DNA of 62,227 nt, counting the filler, from Collodictyon triciliatum (Eukaryota), in the NCBI GenBank assembly GCA_043381765.1. It is 21 parts of 21 records of this genome, joined end to end, with 100 filler letters (N's around TTAATTAATTAA, not from the genome) between each part and the next. Parts side by side here need not be neighbours in the genome. Positions count along the whole stretch, not along the records: positions 17,830 to 20,698 come from JBHJMP010008159.1; 20 more parts are not named here. One strand, 5' to 3'. The notes beneath the pieces are model-generated. The model was not told the DNA's origin and did not search any database. It saw only the letters and a program-made list of their open reading frames with translations. Below, piece after piece: positions 5,845-59,619 of this stretch. Position 1 is the first letter of the stretch; every line of letters begins with the position of its first letter. The position numbers and the translations under genes are program-made.

Positions 5845-5949
5845 NNNNNNNNNNNNNNNNNNNNNNNNNNNNNNNNNNNNNNNNNNNNTTAATTAATTAA
5901 NNNNNNNNNNNNNNNNNNNNNNNNNNNNNNNNNNNNNNNNNNNNGTTTC

Positions 5950-17829: not shown

Positions 17830-18394
17830 TTTTCGAAAGATGAGATGGAGACAGTATGTTAATACAAAAAGAAGTGAAGAGTTGTTTATGGACAGCATCA
17901 AAAAGACATTTTGGCAAGGATGTTGTACTGGCGTATGGAGACTGGAGCAGAAAATGTCCGATGAAGCATTTTATGGCAACAATCAGAAGAGTATTACGAG
18001 AAAAAAAAATACTATCCAAACGTTTTGGTACCAGTTATTGTAAATGGATTAAAACCCTCCAAGATTTGTTGCAACTGCGAAAAAGAACTGGAATACATGC
18101 AATTGAAAGAAAATACAAAAAAAAATATGTATAGATGTCTCACATGTAAAGAATGTAATCACTTGGAAAGCAAACAAACTGCATTCTTGGCAAGGGACTA
18201 TAACAGCGATAAAAATATACTCAACAAAGTTCTTTTTATCCTTCAAAAAATGGACACACCTAGCCCTAAAAAAATGGCTGTTGGGTCTATCCTGGCAGCG
18301 TTCACCACTACGCGAACTTTGTGAAAAAAGTGGCGAGGCATTGGATGCTAGTGCACCAGGTTTACCAATCTTCCGATTGGTATAACCCTTCTAG
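17830..18394 (+). mobile_element. Fanzor1 (eukaryotic TnpB) element 3' end, frameshifted copy A, including conserved 3' non-coding end
   Basis: Across frameshifts: FRKMRWRQYVNTKRSEELF, GKDVVLAYGDWS, PSKICCNC (Zn finger; the RuvC-II Glu position reads VNGL), YRCLTCKEC, RDYNSDKNIL (RuvC-III). Closely similar to 39997-40560 (minus). Confidence 0.9.
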
Positions 18395-18854
18395 TATATT
18401 GTATAAACGACCAGACATCCACTTTGGCATACATGCGAATGAAAAGAACCAGCTTTCCACAACCACACCATCGACCATCACCTCTTTCTCCTTCCCCTCG
18501 ATTAATCTATATACATTCTTATTCTTTTATTCATCTCTCACTCAACCTGTGTGATCAAAAAAAAAAAAAAAGGAGGGGGAGGGGGGTTCATTCTTTATTA
18601 TTATTATTTAGATTCTTACTCATCCATGGGAACATTTGTTAACCATTTTGTTTTCCCCCACACGACGGCGACGAGATACGGAGAAAGGGAGGAAGAGCAA
18701 CAGACACACACACAATTTCACGCACAGGCAGACGCACAGCGGGGTCCACGCAGTGTCTGTGCCGAGTCTCTGGTGCAGGAGCAGAGCCGGGATGGTGGCT
18801 CTGGAAGGCGCGGAGGAAGCCGTATGGGACAGGAGAGCAAGAGGAGGGACGGGG

Positions 18855-19943
18855 TCAGTCGGCAGGGAGGGGGACGTCGAGGGGGACGAGCCTGACGTGG
18901 CGGAAGGGGCGGATGAGGGACTGCGCGCTGTGTTTGCGGTGTTGGGGGGGCGGGGCAGAGGCAGAGGCAGGCGCAGAGGCAGTGTGCTCGAGCGGGGGCG
19001 GGATGTGTGCGGCGAGGACGGTCTTTGGCGGGGACCAGCCGGGGGGCGGGGCGGGGAGGGGCGCGGCCTTTGCGCGGGTCCAGCCGGCGGGGGTCTGGTG
19101 GGGGTTTGGGGCGGGGGCCAGCGGGCTCGGGGCGGCGAGGCTGCGGATGTCCGGGGACGGCGGGACGGCGGCGAGGGCTGCGGCGGCGGTGGCCATGGCG
19201 CGTGCACGCCCGGCGGCCTGCGTGGGGGGGTGCCACTGCTGGTGCGCCGCCCGCTCCTGCCCCTGCCCCTGCCCCTGCCCCTGCTCCCAATCCAGCTCCA
19301 GGGCGGCGTCTGCGGGCGGCGGGTCCGGGCCGATGGGCGGGTGGCGGGCGGTCTCGTGGCGCGCACGCACGTGCCAGCGGCGCAGGATCAGGGCGGCGGC
19401 GCCCAGGGCGCGGTAGCCGTGTGCGGCCAGGTCGCGCGGCGTGTGGAAGGGCAGGGGCGAGCTGACTGTGCTCTCTGCGTACCGCACGTACAGGCGCCCC
19501 TGCCGCGCCCCCACCACAACCGCATCCAGCCCCAGCGGCGTGTGGATCCACGTCCCGGCCGGGAACCCCAGCCCCTCGCACACCGCGCTGCGCGTCTCGA
19601 ACCCCGCAAAGACGCTGCGGTCCCCGCCCCACATCTCGCTCCCTTCGCCCCCGGCCACGCCCCCCGCTCCTGCCCCGCCCCCGCCCCCACCCTTCTTGCT
19701 GCGGCTCCGACCCCGGCTCCGGCTCTGGCTCTGGCTCTGGCTCTGGCCTCCGTTGTTGCTGTTCCCGTTGCTCTTGCGCCCTCGGGTCGGCGCTTGGCTG
19801 CCGCTTCGCCTGCCTGGTTGCGACATGGGCGTCTCGGCGGCGGCTTTTCGTTTGGTGGGTTGGTGCTGTTTGCTCTTGCGGTTTGATGCTTTTGCTAGTG
19901 ATCGGCCCGGGGCTCTTGTTGCTTTCTCGGCTTGCTTGTCCAC
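18855..19943 (-). CDS. GC-rich, apparently intronless hypothetical protein (362 aa) with basic low-complexity N-terminus and a small globular domain
   Basis: ATG-initiated ORF. The segment FETRSAVCEGLGFPAGTWIHTPLGLDAVVVGARQGRLYVRYAESTVSSPLPF looks globular, while overlapping frames are Arg/Pro/Gly-rich shadows. The C-terminal end is uncertain. Confidence 0.65.
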   Translation of the reverse strand: MDKQAEKATRAPGRSLAKASNRKSKQHQPTKRKAAAETPMSQPGRRSGSQAPTRGRKSNGNSNNGGQSQSQSQSRSRGRSRSKKGGGGGGAGAGGVAGGEGSEMWGGDRSVFAGFETRSAVCEGLGFPAGTWIHTPLGLDAVVVGARQGRLYVRYAESTVSSPLPFHTPRDLAAHGYRALGAAALILRRWHVRARHETARHPPIGPDPPPADAALELDWEQGQGQGQGQERAAHQQWHPPTQAAGRARAMATAAAALAAVPPSPDIRSLAAPSPLAPAPNPHQTPAGWTRAKAAPLPAPPPGWSPPKTVLAAHIPPPLEHTASAPASASAPPPQHRKHSAQSLIRPFRHVRLVPLDVPLPAD

Positions 19944-20945
19944 ATATGGTGTTTCCGTTGCTTTGTGGGGGTTAGCTTCCTTGGTTCTTTCCCTTTTTCA
20001 ATTGAATTAATTTATTTGTTTTCTTTTGAAGAGTGCAGGGTTAAAAAAATAATTGTTAAGAAAAAAAAAAGAGGGTGAAATACGTCGAGGATACCGCGTG
20101 GGACAAAAGGATCTACGTCAAGATAGCAACAAAAAGGGATCCAGGAATGTTGAAAGTCAAGCAAGTGACAAAGAAAGTTTTTGTGATTATTTTCTAAAAA
20201 AAAAAAAAAAAAAGGGAGAGGGAGAGAGAGCCTGCTAATCTGCTCTTGTTTCATTAAGATTCACTTAAACAAAAGTTTCGGCTGAATGGCTCCAGCTGCT
20301 GGCGTGTGCGAACTGGCCGATCCCTCGCTCTTGAAAATACCTATCCCACGCAACTGCGTAAATGTCACTAGAATATCTCTCTCTATCTCTCTATCATTTC
20401 CCTACTAAAGTTGTCTAAAATGAGGGGGAGGCATCTTTATAATTTACATACCAAGAGTATTCATGGGAAATCTGTTTCTGACTCAAAAATGAGCTTCTTT
20501 CGGATATGTGGGCTTTGATGTGCTGCGCTGCGATGCATGATTGTCAATAATATTAAACCTATGCGTAGTAATTATGTTAGGTGGTATTACCTTCCCTTTT
20601 TTTTCTTCTTTTTTGGTTTGGTTTGGTTTGGTTTGGTTTGGTTTGGTTTGGTTTGGTTTGGTTTGGTTTGGTTTGGTTTGGTTTGGTTTGGTTTGGTTNN
20701 NNNNNNNNNNNNNNNNNNNNNNNNNNNNNNNNNNNNNNNNNNTTAATTAATTAANNNNNNNNNNNNNNNNNNNNNNNNNNNNNNNNNNNNNNNNNNNNTA
20801 TTATTGTTGTTATTATTGTTGTTATTATTGTTGTTATTATTGTTGTTATTATTGTTGTTTTTGTTATTGTTATTGTTGTTATTGTTATTGTTGTTATTGT
20901 TTTTGCTATTGTTATTGTTGTTATTGTTTTTGTTATTGTTGTTTT

Positions 20946-38635: not shown

Positions 38636-38732
<97 letters not shown>

Positions 38733-39996
38733 ATATTGAACGAGTTGTGAGTAAGAGAAAAATGAAGGAATGCATAAATTGATTGCATCCTTAAAGTCGA
38801 GTGAGGGTGGGTATTTAATTGAACATGACAAGTATGAAAAATAGTGATAAAATGTATGTCATTTCTCGTGATACCCTTATGGCACAAAGGGGGAAAATGA
38901 ATACAAACCTTTTCCCTTGGGACCAGGCTAAGTTAATCCTCGTTTATTGAACAGGCCTGGTTATATATGATAAAGGTAGATAATAAGTGAAACAAGTGTA
39001 TGAATCTTGGCACACATAGACTCTAGTTGTAAAACTCTGCAATAACCTTTTATGAAGAGAACAGCCGCCCAAGGAGACGATTATTCCTAGCGAGTGTTAA
39101 GTCGCTATGGGAAAAGGATACCTTTTTCTTTTCTTTTTTTTTTCGTTCCACGCCTATGTCCAGTTGCTCTATTATTTTATAGAAATGAAGGAAGGAATAT
39201 CGCTTGGCCTTTATTCTCGTTATCGGTTTTTTCATTTTTCATTTTTTTTTCATTTTTTTTTCATTTTTTTCATTTTTTTTTCATTTTTTTCATTTTTTCA
39301 CTGTTTTTCATTTTTTTCATTTTTTCATTTTTTCATTTTTTCACTGTTTTTCATTTTTTCACATTTTTTTTTTAAAAAAAAAGAAAAAGAATGAAGTGGA
39401 ATATGATGTGGAAACGGGTGTTGTTCAAAAGGTAGTTGGATCTAAGGTGATAGTGAAAGTTGAGCGACGATACACAGAACATCAACTCAGATCAACAACT
39501 AAGAAGGTAAATATGTGAAGATAATGGGCAAAAAGCATGCTTTGAAAGACCACACACAATTATATATTCTGCTTGGCAACATTATGTCTTTCCATTTATT
39601 TTAACAGCAGTACATCTGAGTCGCCGGCCTCTTCATCGGGCATTACTTGTCCTTTTAAGGTATTGTGTTTCTACTCCCCGTGTCTTGAAAAGGCCACGCC
39701 CTCCCTTGTTTTTCTTTTTCTTTTTCTTTTGGAACAAAAAATGATCTGCGTTCTGTAAAACTCTTTGCAGAAGACTTCAGCAGCTGCCCAAGAGGTGCGA
39801 CAAAGTGAGAAGGAAAACAAGAAGGCGATATCCGTTCGAGTGTAATTGTTTAGCTTTGGAATCTGTCAAACTGTGCTGCTTGGACATCGCCTTCTGATTC
39901 ACAAGTAACACGCAGACGAACCCACAAGCTGACAATAGCCGCATCGTGTCATAAATGTTAATAGGAATAGTATCTTCACATCAATTTTATCGTATA

Positions 39997-52482: not shown

Positions 52483-53198
52483 CTACTCGCAATCATGCGC
52501 GTCCGACCCGCGAAGCGACTCAAAGACAGGCAGTCTGTGCGACAACGAGTCTTCGCGAGACCGAGTGGAGCTACTTCGAGACGGCCTGTCTTCTGCTGGG
52601 TCGCTCGACAAAAGCGCGTCAGTCCACAGCAGCGACTCCGTCTCGGCGTGATGCATCTGCGCAACGGCGCCTGCAGACAAGGACATCTCGTTGAAGCGGC
52701 CCAGCAGAGACTTTGGCGCCATCAGCGACCCGCGATGAGAATGCGGGGCATCCAAGCCCGGCTCTACCTCTGGCCTTGGCGGCGCCCTTGCGAGCGACTC
52801 GCCAAACATCGGCGAGTAGAGTGTGATTGCAGGGTGCATCTGATTGGGCACGTAGGTGACTGTGTGGTGGATGTTTGATCCGTCCTGATCCGGCGCGTCC
52901 TGCTGGCGGGTGGGGCTGGCCTCCGAGTTTCCTTGGAAGAATCCCATCAGAGTCTGTTCTGAGGACGTGCTTAGTCTGGAGTTTGAGTTTGCGTTGGATG
53001 CTGGGTTCGAGTATGTGAGTCTGGTGGGGCTTTGGGATGAGTTGAGCTCGAGGATTGTTTCGTAGTCGAATGTTTCTGAGGGGAAGTCCGCTGCGTTGGG
53101 CTCCGTTGTGTGGTATTCTGCTTGCTGTGTTGGACTTCCGTGGATGAAGAGGCAGCGTTTGCCGTAGGGACAGCTTCCGGTGGAATGGTATGTGCGGC
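52483..53198 (-). CDS. TTP/ZFP36-family CCCH zinc-finger protein, last exon
   Basis: (C)RTYHSTGSCPYGKRCLFIH is the second tandem finger. C-terminal RLPVFESL matches the CNOT1-binding motif (RLPIF). Confidence 0.88.
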
Positions 53199-53898
53199 CT
53201 GGAGTAGGGTTGGATTTGGTTGAGTGGGTTTGGGCTGGGTTTGAGTTGAGTTGAGTTGAGTTGAGTTGAGTTGAGTTGAGTTGAGTTGAGTTGAGTTGAG
53301 TTGAGTTGAGTTGAGTTGAGTTGAGTTGAGTTGAGTTGAGTTNNNNNNNNNNNNNNNNNNNNNNNNNNNNNNNNNNNNNNNNNNNNTTAATTAATTAANN
53401 NNNNNNNNNNNNNNNNNNNNNNNNNNNNNNNNNNNNNNNNNNTAAAACAATAAAACAATAAAACAATAAAACAATAAAACAATAAAACAATAAAACAATA
53501 AAACAATAAAACAATAAAACAATAAAACAATAAAACATAAAAACATAAAACATAAAAACATAAAACATAAAAACAAACAAAAAACAAACCAAAAACAAAC
53601 CAAAAACAAACCAAAAACAAACAAAAACAAACAAAACAAAAAACGAACAAAAACAAACAAAAACAAACAAAACAAAAAACGAACAAAAAACAAAAACAAA
53701 AAACGATTGTTTAGCCATGAAATGAGTTTCAACCAGTTTTGCCTTCGGGAAGAAATTTCTTTTTGTCCAAGACAGATCGCAAAATCCAGGCTCGCAGAGA
53801 CAAAAAGTATCCCGGCCTTTCTTTTCTTTTCTTTTTTTTAAACTGCGTCACTTTTTCTACGTGCCGATCGCTTCACACTAATTCACTCATATTTAGGT

Positions 53899-59147: not shown

Positions 59148-59619
59148 GTCTTTGTCTTTGTCTTTGTCTTTGTCTTTGTCTTTGTCTTTGTCTTTGTCTT
59201 TGTCTTTGTCTTTGTCTTTGTCTTTGTCTTTGTCTTTGTCTTTGTCTTTGTCTTTGTCTTTGNNNNNNNNNNNNNNNNNNNNNNNNNNNNNNNNNNNNNN
59301 NNNNNNTTAATTAATTAANNNNNNNNNNNNNNNNNNNNNNNNNNNNNNNNNNNNNNNNNNNNAAAAAATAATAAAAAGAAATAATAAAAAGAAATAATAA
59401 AAAGAAATAATAAAAAGAAATAATAAAAAGAAATAATAAAAAGAAATAATAAAAAGAAATAATAAAAATAAATAATAAAGAGAAGGACAAAGCGCAGGTG
59501 TCTGCAGTAAGGTGTCTGCAAGCAACTAATTTCACAAGAGGCCAAAAAATGTACATCTCATATACTTAATTTTCTAAAATAATAAGCGTGATTACTTTGA
59601 GGTGTGGTGGTTTCCTTTG

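What the first reader, a model, noticed from the sequence alone, without database searches (positions are those of the whole stretch)
18270..18415. Fanzor1 copy A: structured 3' end (putative omegaRNA scaffold) with a Helitron-like hairpin + CTAG|T terminus
Seen: similarity between the two Fanzor copies continues about 120 nt across and past the end of the ORF and stops at ...CTAGTATA. The shared region folds into hairpins: CTGTTGGG-tctat-CCTGGCAG, TTCACCACT...AGTGGCGAG, and a perfect 8-bp TACCAATC-ttcc-GATTGGTA that ends 8 nt before CTAG (18391-18394), followed by T. Established: Fanzor/TnpB omegaRNA overlaps the ORF 3' end and element end, and the guide comes from flanking DNA. Helitrons end in a subterminal hairpin plus CTRR followed by a host T, and Fanzor1 has been captured by several transposon types including Helitrons. 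Inference: this is a Helitron-borne Fanzor1 family in which the rolling-circle terminator hairpin also serves as the last omegaRNA stem, with the guide starting near 18395.
Basis: partly seen in the sequence, partly recalled or inferred. Interest (0 to 1): 0.82.

Follow-up and report, generated by a model that had tools for sequence, protein, structure and literature searches.

The report
Decayed Fanzor1 transposon end, not Helitron
This is the worn-out tail of a jumping gene that once carried an RNA-guided DNA cutter (Fanzor1) and its folded guide-RNA end; its relatives are ordinary cut-and-paste mariner-type elements of giant viruses, so the Helitron idea is unsupported and the feature is of a known kind.

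Summary
The window is a chain of about 2.87-kb assembly pieces. It holds two frameshifted Fanzor1 pseudogene copies, A (17830-18394, +) and B (41498-39997, -). Their similarity runs to CTAGTATA and then stops; the flanks share only low-complexity matches. The three hairpins exist in copy A (fold z -3.0; terminal part z -5.1). The 8-bp terminal hairpin is absent in copy B. The "ORF end" at 18324 comes from a 1-nt difference in an A run; the ancestral ORF probably ran almost to the terminus. The nearest intact relatives (634 aa) lie mostly in giant-virus contigs, and their profile matches solved Fanzor1 structures (SpuFz1, E 1.4e-41). Their 3' ends carry a conserved RNA-like fold with covariation, so the omegaRNA reading is plausible. 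These relatives are not Helitrons. They have about 30-nt terminal inverted repeats with termini CACC...GGTG; 60 of 62 parsed elements have TA on both sides, and 40 of 160 loci match a DDE_3 transposase. The T after CTAG most simply fits a mariner-type TA duplication. This rests on analogy: no left end of the window's family is visible, and neither an HMM nor a covariance model of the relatives' ends detects the window's end. Verdict: new, decayed member of a known kind; low interest.

The parts
17830..18394 (+). Copy A: 3' third of a decayed Fanzor1 gene (zinc ribbon and RuvC-III RD motif) running to the element end. It is cut at 17830 by the edge of an assembly piece, has frameshifts, and carries G at the aligned position of the relatives' NEF glutamate (RuvC-II role recalled).
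   Evidence: tblastn of P0025 against 17831-18285, E 1.4e-26; frames; alignment; piece edges
18278..18298 (+). Hairpin 1 (8 bp, 3 of them G.U in A). Kept in copy B, where one U.G becomes C-G.
18301..18337 (+). Stem 2, TTCACCACT with AGTGGCGAG. It has one A/C mismatch in A and is fully paired in B. Its 5' arm starts with the TTCAC motif that is nearly invariant in relatives.
18359..18387 (+). Terminal stem-loop of copy A: the perfect 8-bp hairpin 18363-18382, extended by GGTT 18359-18362 pairing with AACC 18384-18387. Not present in copy B.
   Evidence: z -5.06 for 18340-18394; B z -0.15
18391..18394 (+). CTAG, the last bases assigned to the element. An identical CTAG lies 39 nt upstream (18348-18351), and likewise in B (40040-40037), so it could close the terminal fold.
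   Evidence: the pairing is inference
18395..18398 (+). TATA shared by both copies outside CTAG. The first TA is read as a mariner-type target-site duplication. The second TA is target preference or chance.
   Evidence: analogy with TA flanks of relatives
39997..41498 (-). Copy B: about 500 codons of the same Fanzor1 pseudogene, from about residue 185 of the 634-aa relative to the end. It has several stops and frameshifts and is cut at 41498 by a piece edge. The element end CTAG is at 40000-39997.
   Evidence: tblastn of P0025, E 5.9e-70
39993..39996 (-). TATA following copy B's CTAG. The flank is unrelated to A's flank from 39992 downward.

Best explanation
Positions 18270-18394 are the right end of a dead, multi-copy transposon that carried a Fanzor1 RNA-guided nuclease. 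In the living ancestor this stretch probably did three jobs at once: it encoded the C-terminal tail of Fanzor1, it was transcribed as the 3' part of the omegaRNA scaffold, and it formed the transposon terminus. The scaffold consisted of hairpins 1 and 2 plus a terminal stem-loop reaching the last base of the element, with the guide read from the flanking DNA just beyond. The carrier was most likely a Tc1/mariner-IS630 type cut-and-paste element with terminal inverted repeats and a TA target-site duplication, as in its nearest relatives, and not a Helitron. The element then ends at CTAG (18394), and the following TA is the duplication.

Shown: Fanzor1 homology; decay of both copies; the shared boundary; the hairpins in A; the TIR, TA, transposase and covarying RNA fold in relatives.

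Inferred: that the window's family has the same carrier and that its end once made an omegaRNA.
For: The two copies share a sharp boundary at CTAGTATA.

The window ORFs are homologous to a 634-aa family (tblastn E 5.9e-70 for B and 1.4e-26 for A). The profile of that family matches solved Fanzor1 structures: SpuFz1 8gkh at E 1.4e-41, PpFz1 at 9e-36, GtFz1 at 1.7e-27.

The translated match of copy B extends to P0025 residue 625 of 634 at window 40042.

In relatives the equivalent sequence is kept whether it lies inside the ORF, after an early stop (L085) or across an in-frame stop (L083).

Of 104 distinct right ends of relatives, 101 fold so that at least 8 of the last 14 bases pair with an upstream segment around a nested hairpin. 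The median z is -3.07.

Covariation in relatives. On the MAFFT alignment the outer stem has 82.0% of cells paired, against 74.8 +/- 0.8 in shuffles (0 of 500) and 48-62% when slid. On the model-fitted alignment 89.3% are paired against 78.9 +/- 0.6, 12 of 19 pairs have changes on both sides, and 0 of 500 shuffles reach this. The non-Watson-Crick pairs tallied as standard pairs are all U.G or G.U in the sense orientation, as expected for RNA.

Relatives are TIR elements. Eighty distinct elements have exact inverted matches of 20 nt or more. In 62 the termini could be parsed, and 60 of those 62 have TA on both sides.

A 346-aa ORF next to the left TIR of L003 matches DDE_3 at E 1.3e-13. Its relatives occur in 40 of 160 loci.

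Both window copies have TA right after CTAG (2 of 2).

Passages read in Bao and Jurka 2013 (PMC3627910) describe Fanzor1 in Mariner elements with TA duplications, including Fanzor-only elements and giant-virus copies. Passages read in Saito et al. 2023 (PMC10432273) describe 30-nt inverted repeats around SpuFz1. Passages read in Jiang et al. 2023 (PMC10530073) state that the Fanzor RNA overlaps the terminal inverted repeat.
Against: No left end, TIR partner or transposase of the window's own family is visible. The right-end motif occurs only at the two copies, and both copies are cut by piece edges.

Sequence profiles of the relatives' 3' ends (nhmmer, three profiles) found nothing at either copy at E up to 10. 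A covariance model of the relatives' terminal stem-loop also found nothing there: its best window match, E 0.2, is a low-complexity site elsewhere. RNA-level homology of the terminal part is therefore not demonstrated.

The window terminus (CTAG) does not resemble the relatives' terminus (GGTG).

The terminal hairpin is seen in one copy only.

Two copies cannot show covariation.

Sharing TA after CTAG in an AT-rich genome has a chance of roughly one in ten (my estimate).

Fanzor1 genes are known to change carriers (chimeric elements; PMC3627910, passages read).

Conservation of 18270-18350 could reflect only the coding tail.
Confidence: 0.6

Rival explanations
1. A transposon end of another or unknown superfamily. 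The Fanzor1 gene was captured by a different carrier, or the true end is at 18398 (CTAGTATA) with a different duplication or none. The scaffold reading is otherwise unchanged.
For: Similarity strictly ends at 18398, not at 18394. The terminus sequence is unlike the relatives'. The relatives' models do not detect it. Fanzor1 occurs in several superfamilies and in chimeric elements (PMC3627910 and PMC10530073, passages read).
Against: The nearest protein relatives that could be examined are all of one type: TA, CACC...GGTG, TA. The TA directly after CTAG in both copies needs no extra assumption under the mariner reading.
Confidence: 0.2
2. No RNA role. The conservation up to the end is just the C-terminal coding tail plus a transposase-binding end, and the hairpins of copy A are incidental.
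For: Read in B's frame, the whole stretch is coding, up to the TAG inside CTAG. The tail KKSGE.LD.SAP resembles EKVGQSVDF of relatives at the protein level. The terminal hairpin is absent in B. No RNA evidence exists. There are no double-sided changes between A and B.
Against: In relatives the same stretch is conserved when it is not coding (L085, L083, and the large clade whose ORF match ends about 140 nt before the terminus). It also covaries as RNA. Copy A's fold is better than shuffles (z -3.0 and -5.1).
Confidence: 0.13
3. One reading: a Helitron-borne Fanzor1 family in which the subterminal terminator hairpin plus CTAG, inserted before a host T, doubles as the last omegaRNA stem.
For: CTAG fits CTRR and is followed by T in 2 of 2 copies. 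An 8-bp hairpin ends 8 nt before it in copy A. Helitron-associated Fanzor1 exists (Chlamydomonas CRe-1 to CRe-3 / CrFNuc in Helitron2 elements; PMC3627910 and PMC10530073, passages read).
Against: Under this reading only T is required after CTAG, yet both copies share TATA. The hairpin is missing in copy B. None of the relatives examined has a Helitron-type end; they have TIRs, TA flanks and DDE_3 transposases. No helicase or Rep domain appeared in the 16 long window ORFs scanned, which is a weak test on a fragmented assembly. The documented Helitron-borne Fanzors are of the Helitron2 type, with asymmetric terminal repeats and duplications, not the canonical TC...CTRR type (PMC3627910, passages read).
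Confidence: 0.07

Closest known systems
Fanzor1-carrying Tc1/mariner elements of giant viruses and protists (PGv-1, PUl-1, Fanzor-only PUl-4; Bao and Jurka 2013, PMC3627910, passages read)
   Same: The nuclease belongs to the same family by homology to relatives that have exactly this build: TIRs, TA flanks, an optional DDE transposase, and many Fanzor-only elements of 2.3-2.5 kb. TA follows the end in both window copies. The structured 3' end reaches the terminus.
   Different: The window copies are pseudogenes in a fragmented eukaryote-like assembly. Their left end is unseen. Their terminus is CTAG rather than GGTG, and models of the relatives' ends do not recognise it.
Spu-1 elements of Spizellomyces punctatus with SpuFz1 and its omegaRNA (Saito et al. 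2023, PMC10432273, passages read; PDB 8gkh)
   Same: It is the best solved-structure match of the relatives' profile (E 1.4e-41). The gene is flanked by 30-nt inverted repeats, the omegaRNA overlaps the gene's 3' end and the right end, and the family is multi-copy with many partial copies.
   Different: The relation is distant, and the window fragment alone gives no significant PDB match (best E 0.35 to Cas12g). No RNA data or activity data exist here.
Helitron2-borne Fanzor1c of Chlamydomonas reinhardtii (CRe-1 to CRe-3 / CrFNuc; PMC3627910 and PMC10530073, passages read)
   Same: A Fanzor1 with a conserved, structured 3' RNA. It shows that a rolling-circle carrier is possible in principle.
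   Different: Beyond CTAG plus T and one hairpin in one copy, no Helitron feature is seen here, and the nearest relatives are TIR elements.
IS200/IS605 TnpB with its omegaRNA
   Same: The general principle: the scaffold overlaps the 3' end of the gene and the right end of the element, and the guide is read from the flank (established knowledge; Discussion passages of PMC10432273).
   Different: The carrier is a eukaryotic or viral element with a DDE-type transposase rather than an HUH TnpA. Nothing here is functional.

Membership tests
Fanzor1 (eukaryotic/viral TnpB homologue) | Significant sequence homology to Fanzor1 proteins | tested here: met
   tblastn of the 634-aa relative P0025 gives E 5.9e-70 for copy B and 1.4e-26 for copy A. 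The relatives' profile hits SpuFz1, PpFz1 and GtFz1 at E 1.4e-41 to 1.7e-27, and no other PDB chain at E up to 1. Pfam on 8 window ORF fragments and a direct PDB search gave nothing significant.
Fanzor1 (eukaryotic/viral TnpB homologue) | C-terminal motif D ... [TS][TS]xx, C4 zinc finger, RD (Bao and Jurka 2013) | tested here: inconclusive
   CxxC ... CxxC and RD are present in both copies, and the RuvC-I-like D is present in B (VDAGEF aligned to GADPGKF). At the relatives' NEF glutamate, A has G, while B keeps the E but has a stop next to it. A has PS and B has IS where relatives have TS. The assignment of these residues to the catalytic RuvC motifs is recalled, not tested here.
Fanzor1 (eukaryotic/viral TnpB homologue) | Intact open reading frame | tested here: not met
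   Both copies have frameshifts and stops. The longest pieces are 95-107 aa.
omegaRNA scaffold | Conserved structured region overlapping the gene's 3' end and reaching the element end | tested here: inconclusive
   Met in relatives. In the window, A folds well (z -3.03 and -5.06), but B's terminal part does not (z -0.15).
omegaRNA scaffold | Covariation in the stems | tested here: inconclusive
   Relatives: supported. Window: only two copies, with 2 one-sided changes that fit pairing and no double-sided change.
omegaRNA scaffold | Recognised by a model of the relatives' RNA | tested here: not met
   nhmmer with three profiles gave no hit at either copy at E up to 10. Covariance model R1 with filters off gave 20 matches at E up to 10, none at the copies. 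The same model finds 89 matches at E up to 0.01 in 100 relative loci.
omegaRNA scaffold | An RNA is made that extends into the flank | not testable with these tools
   No RNA holder was listed for this stretch.
Tc1/mariner-IS630 (ITm) transposon | Terminal inverted repeats | not testable with these tools
   The left end is outside both assembly pieces, and no inverted copy of the end occurs in the window. Relatives: 80 distinct elements have exact inverted matches of 20 nt or more.
Tc1/mariner-IS630 (ITm) transposon | TA target-site duplication | tested here: inconclusive
   TA follows CTAG in 2 of 2 copies, but the left side is unseen. Relatives: 60 of 62 parsed elements have TA on both sides. 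No empty sites were compared.
Tc1/mariner-IS630 (ITm) transposon | DDE (DDE_3) transposase in autonomous members | tested here: inconclusive
   Relatives: PF13358 at E 1.3e-13 in L003, with tblastn matches in 40 of 160 loci. Window: only a weak match at 45450-45728, E 0.041.
Helitron (canonical Helitron1) | 3' CTRR end followed by a host T | tested here: met
   CTAG then T in 2 of 2 copies. The same letters fit an element end plus TA.
Helitron (canonical Helitron1) | Subterminal hairpin about 10 nt from the 3' end, kept across copies | tested here: not met
   Present in A (8 bp, ending 8 nt before CTAG) and absent in B.
Helitron (canonical Helitron1) | 5'-TC end after a host A, with no TIR and no duplication | not testable with these tools
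   The 5' ends are not in the window, no genome is held, and no closer copies were found in the collections.
Helitron (canonical Helitron1) | Linked RepHel gene in the family or its relatives | tested here: not met
   No Rep or helicase domain appeared in the 16 long window ORFs scanned, which is a weak test. The neighbour gene of the relatives, checked in L003, is a DDE_3 transposase, with tblastn matches in 40 of 160 loci.

The most novel reading that the evidence does not exclude
The window's family may have swapped carriers. The terminus does differ from all relatives, and their models do not recognise it, so a different carrier is not excluded.
Probability: 0.07. Interest if true: 0.55.

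Novelty: new member of a known kind. Interest (0 to 1): 0.2.

Why it matters
Little changes for biology. Fanzor1 genes in mariner-type elements, their spread by giant viruses and their TIR-overlapping guide RNAs are already in print (PMC3627910, PMC10432273, PMC10530073; passages read).

Two points are useful. First, a hairpin followed by CTAG and T can mimic a Helitron end when it is really an element end plus a TA duplication, so Helitron calls should not be made from 3' ends alone. Second, a eukaryote-like genome here carries many decayed copies of a Fanzor1 family whose nearest intact relatives sit in giant-virus contigs, which fits virus-mediated spread of these nucleases.

The relatives offer a clean example of one stretch of DNA serving as coding tail, guide-RNA scaffold and transposon end at once.

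Tried and rejected

**Sequencing runs.** Seven runs were listed, each holding at most 0.08 of the sampled words, and no RNA holder was listed. Contigs of four coded runs were laid at 80% likeness. X1 gave 74 contigs and X6 gave 46 on the Fanzor part, so diverged copies exist elsewhere. None was laid beyond about 18399. Two contigs (X1 record 8, X6 record 27) stop matching at 18369/18370 and continue with unlike sequence. A part without cover proves nothing, and the contig letters cannot be read, so this gave no new ends.

**Closer relatives or the end motif in public collections.** Nothing was found in viral contigs by protein or by a degenerate end pattern. A 29-nt conserved coding stretch found nothing in genome contigs.

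**Earlier notes.** None for this genome or this sequence.

**Domain and structure look-ups on the window itself.** Pfam on 8 window ORF fragments gave no TnpB-family hit at E up to 1. In relatives PF07282 appears only below its cut-off, in 4 of 7 scanned. A direct PDB search with the window fragment gave a best E of 0.35, to Cas12g.

**RNA searches.** Rfam on the whole window gave 0 matches at gathering score. RNAalifold on the heterogeneous 101-sequence alignment gave only 3 pairs, because the MAFFT registers of the nested hairpin differ; I therefore used a hand-given structure and a model-fitted alignment. nhmmer and covariance model R1 failed to detect the window ends.

**Organism.** The protein atlas on the 924-aa ORF at 41603-44374 gave no usable hit, so the organism was not identified.

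**Flank homology beyond CTAGTATA.** A local score of 27 against 17.9 +/- 2.2 at 300 nt proved to be low-complexity matches only.

**Papers.** Supplementary files could not be seen. The element sequences of Bao and Jurka (their Additional files) might contain this family's ends.

Full report
**What the window is.** The 62,227 bases are not one stretch of genome. They are 21 pieces of about 2.87 kb, joined by spacers of 44 N, TTAATTAATTAA and 44 N. No whole genome is held. The finding lies in the piece 17830-20698. Copy A of the Fanzor gene starts exactly at that piece's first base, so only its last 565 bases are present. Copy B lies on the minus strand of the piece 38636-41498 and is cut at 41498.

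**The observation.** blastn aligns 17830-18363 with 40550-40025 at 83.0% over 536 nt. A global alignment carries the similarity through an indel-rich stretch to CTAGTATA (A 18391-18398, B 40000-39993), after which it stops.
- Identity is 366 of 440 columns in the gene body and 102 of 136 in 18270-18398.
- The first 60 flank bases match at 25 of 60 ungapped.
- A local score excess at 300 nt (27 against 17.9 +/- 2.2) turned out to be scattered poly-A/T and TTA-repeat matches. The boundary is therefore real.
- As RNA, 18270-18394 folds at -42.4 kcal/mol (z -3.03; 1 of 200 shuffles as good), and 18340-18394 at z -5.06 (0 of 200).
- Copy B's terminal part has no fold (z -0.15), and the whole of B reaches only z -1.81.
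- Hairpins 1 and 2 are shared. The two differences between the copies there improve pairing in B but are one-sided. The perfect 8-bp hairpin is a property of copy A alone.

**The 'end of the ORF'.** Both copies are pseudogenes with several frameshifts and stops. The stop at 18322-18324 arises because A has one A fewer than B in a homopolymer run. In B's frame the reading continues to the TAG inside the terminal CTAG. In A's shifted frame it continues to TAA at 18384-18386. The tail so read (KKSGE.LD.SAP) resembles EKVGQSVDF in the tails of intact relatives.

**What the gene is.** An exhaustive HMMER search with the 119-aa fragment 17965-18321 found 21 proteins at E up to 0.001, 2 of them at E up to 1e-10. 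They include intact 634-aa proteins. tblastn of one of them (P0025) against the window gives E 5.9e-70 for copy B and 1.4e-26 for copy A, and finds no third copy. A profile of four relatives hits only Fanzor1 structures in the PDB: SpuFz1 at 1.4e-41, PpFz1 at 9e-36 and GtFz1 at 1.7e-27. Pfam sees the TnpB zinc-ribbon domain in relatives only below its cut-off, and sees nothing in the window fragments. The label Fanzor1 is therefore right, by way of relatives. The zinc finger and the RD motif survive. At the position of the relatives' NEF glutamate, A has G and B has a stop next to the E.

**The relatives and their carrier.** Scans with the relatives' alignment returned 80 loci from metagenomes and 80 from the viral collection. 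Many are giant-virus contigs.
- The thirteen closest loci all show a conserved sequence downstream of, or inside, the end of the ORF, running to ...GGTG followed by TA.
- The reverse complement of that end lies upstream of the gene, so the ends are terminal inverted repeats of about 30 nt.
- Of 80 distinct elements with exact inverted matches of 20 nt or more, my script could place the CACC and GGTG termini in 62. Sixty of those 62 have TA on both sides, most often TTTA...TAAA. The other 18 were not parsed and are not counted.
- Forty-five of the 62 are 2.27-2.49 kb and carry Fanzor only. Seventeen are 2.7-5.3 kb.
- In L003 the extra space holds a 346-aa ORF on the opposite strand with DDE_3 (E 1.3e-13; 51.4 bits against a cut-off of 28.6) and an HTH just under its cut-off. 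tblastn finds its relatives in 40 of 160 loci, counting duplicates between the two collections.
- This is the Mariner-type Fanzor1 element described by Bao and Jurka in 2013 (PGv-1, PUl-1, Fanzor-only PUl-4, TA duplications; PMC3627910, passages read). SpuFz1, the best structural match, is likewise flanked by 30-nt inverted repeats (PMC10432273, passages read).
- No relative showed a Helitron-type end.

**The RNA in the relatives.** Of 160 loci, 145 had GGTGTA in the span searched. The 15 without it are mostly truncated contigs or point variants such as GGTGTC and GGTATA. The 145 collapse to 104 distinct right ends.
- The sequence is kept whether it is coding (L001 type), lies behind an early stop (L085), is crossed by an in-frame stop (L083), or lies fully downstream of the ORF (the large clade). 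This argues for a constraint other than coding.
- Folded one by one, 101 of 104 pair at least 8 of their last 14 bases with an upstream segment, enclosing a nested hairpin. The median z is -3.07, and 86 of 104 are below -2 (30 mononucleotide shuffles each).
- On the plain MAFFT alignment of 95 ends (9 with large insertions were dropped), the 12 outer-stem pairs have 82.0% of cells paired. Shuffles give 74.8 +/- 0.8 (0 of 500 reach the observed value), and slid controls give 48-62%.
- On an alignment fitted to covariance model R1, which leans towards the structure, 89.3% are paired against 78.9 +/- 0.6. Twelve of 19 pairs change on both sides. Slid controls give 41-63%.
- The non-Watson-Crick pairs that the tool tallies as standard pairs are all U.G or G.U in the sense orientation. 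On the other strand they would be A/C mismatches, so this points to RNA rather than a DNA hairpin.
- The relatives thus carry a Fanzor RNA whose last helix is made with the TIR itself, as stated in general terms by Jiang et al. 2023 (PMC10530073, passages read).

**Mapping back to the window.** The translated match of copy B to P0025 extends to residue 625 of 634 at window 40042. The nearly invariant TTCAC and AAAAAGT motifs of the relatives are present there. Copy A's terminal hairpin sits where the relatives have their nested hairpin. It is extended by GGTT with AACC, and the terminal CTAG has an identical CTAG 39 nt upstream in both copies that could close the fold (inference).

The link is weak at the very end. 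Three nhmmer profiles and model R1 (filters off, whole window) find nothing at either copy, and the terminus letters differ from the relatives'. The end motif occurs nowhere else in the window, so no left end can be shown. Searches for closer relatives failed.

**Verdict.** The omegaRNA reading is plausible and well grounded in relatives, but it is unproven for these two dead copies. The Helitron reading rests on CTAG plus T and on a hairpin seen in one copy.

I put 0.6 on a decayed mariner-type Fanzor1 element whose end once served as coding tail, guide-RNA scaffold and terminus. I put 0.2 on another or unknown carrier, 0.13 on no RNA role, and 0.07 on a Helitron.

Earlier notes of this scan on other genomes describe the same giant-virus element type. 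They are leads only; I re-derived the TIRs, TA flanks and RNA fold here. The feature is a new, decayed member of a known kind and is of low interest.

Noticed in passing
window 1-62227 (spacers at 2873-2972, 5845-5944, ... 59263-59362; N run 49043-49461): The window is a concatenation of 21 pieces of about 2.87 kb, joined by 44 N, TTAATTAATTAA and 44 N. Many pieces end in homopolymer or microsatellite runs. This is a very fragmented, AT-rich assembly (about 30-37% GC) with GC-rich islands. Features cannot be assumed to be neighbours across spacers.
   Followed up: partly
window 41543-44377 (-): A 944-codon open frame fills an entire piece. It has no Pfam family at E up to 0.01 and no usable protein-atlas hit.
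   Followed up: partly
window 18612-20010: A 60% GC island starts about 215 nt after copy A's end. It has long overlapping open frames on both strands (up to 424 codons) and no Pfam hit. It may be a GC-rich host gene next to the insertion.
   Followed up: partly
window 47569-48340 and 49470-50200: Arrays of a 13-nt tandem repeat (unit like CATAATCCCGTGG) lie on both sides of the 419-N gap; they look like satellite DNA.
   Followed up: no
window 45450-45728 (+) and 45469-45509 (-): There are two weak, overlapping matches in one piece. One is tblastn to the N-terminal part of the relatives' mariner transposase (E 0.041). The other is nhmmer to the relatives' RNA end (E 0.88). Neither is significant. 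They could be a very decayed element or noise.
   Followed up: no
window 52486-53340 (-): This open frame has a CCCH zinc finger (PF00642, E 3.4e-05, above the cut-off). It is one of the few recognisable host-like domains in the window.
   Followed up: no
L008:1958-2172: In this relative the Fanzor ORF reads through the entire RNA scaffold and the TIR. Its stop codon TAA is made from the flanking TA plus the next A, so coding tail, RNA scaffold and transposon end overlap completely.
   Followed up: partly
L064:9863-10018: Two adjacent matches to the end model lie in opposite orientation (38.2 and 41.5 bits), about 3 kb from the Fanzor element of that contig. They look like a tiny gene-less element made of two ends (a 'ghost' element).
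   Followed up: no
relatives, alignments A6 and A8: In the stem formed by the TIR end and the internal segment, the non-Watson-Crick pairs tallied as standard pairs are all U.G or G.U on the sense strand (for example 61-63 of 82-87 sequences at one pair). This is a strand-specific signature of RNA pairing laid over a transposase-binding repeat.
   Followed up: partly
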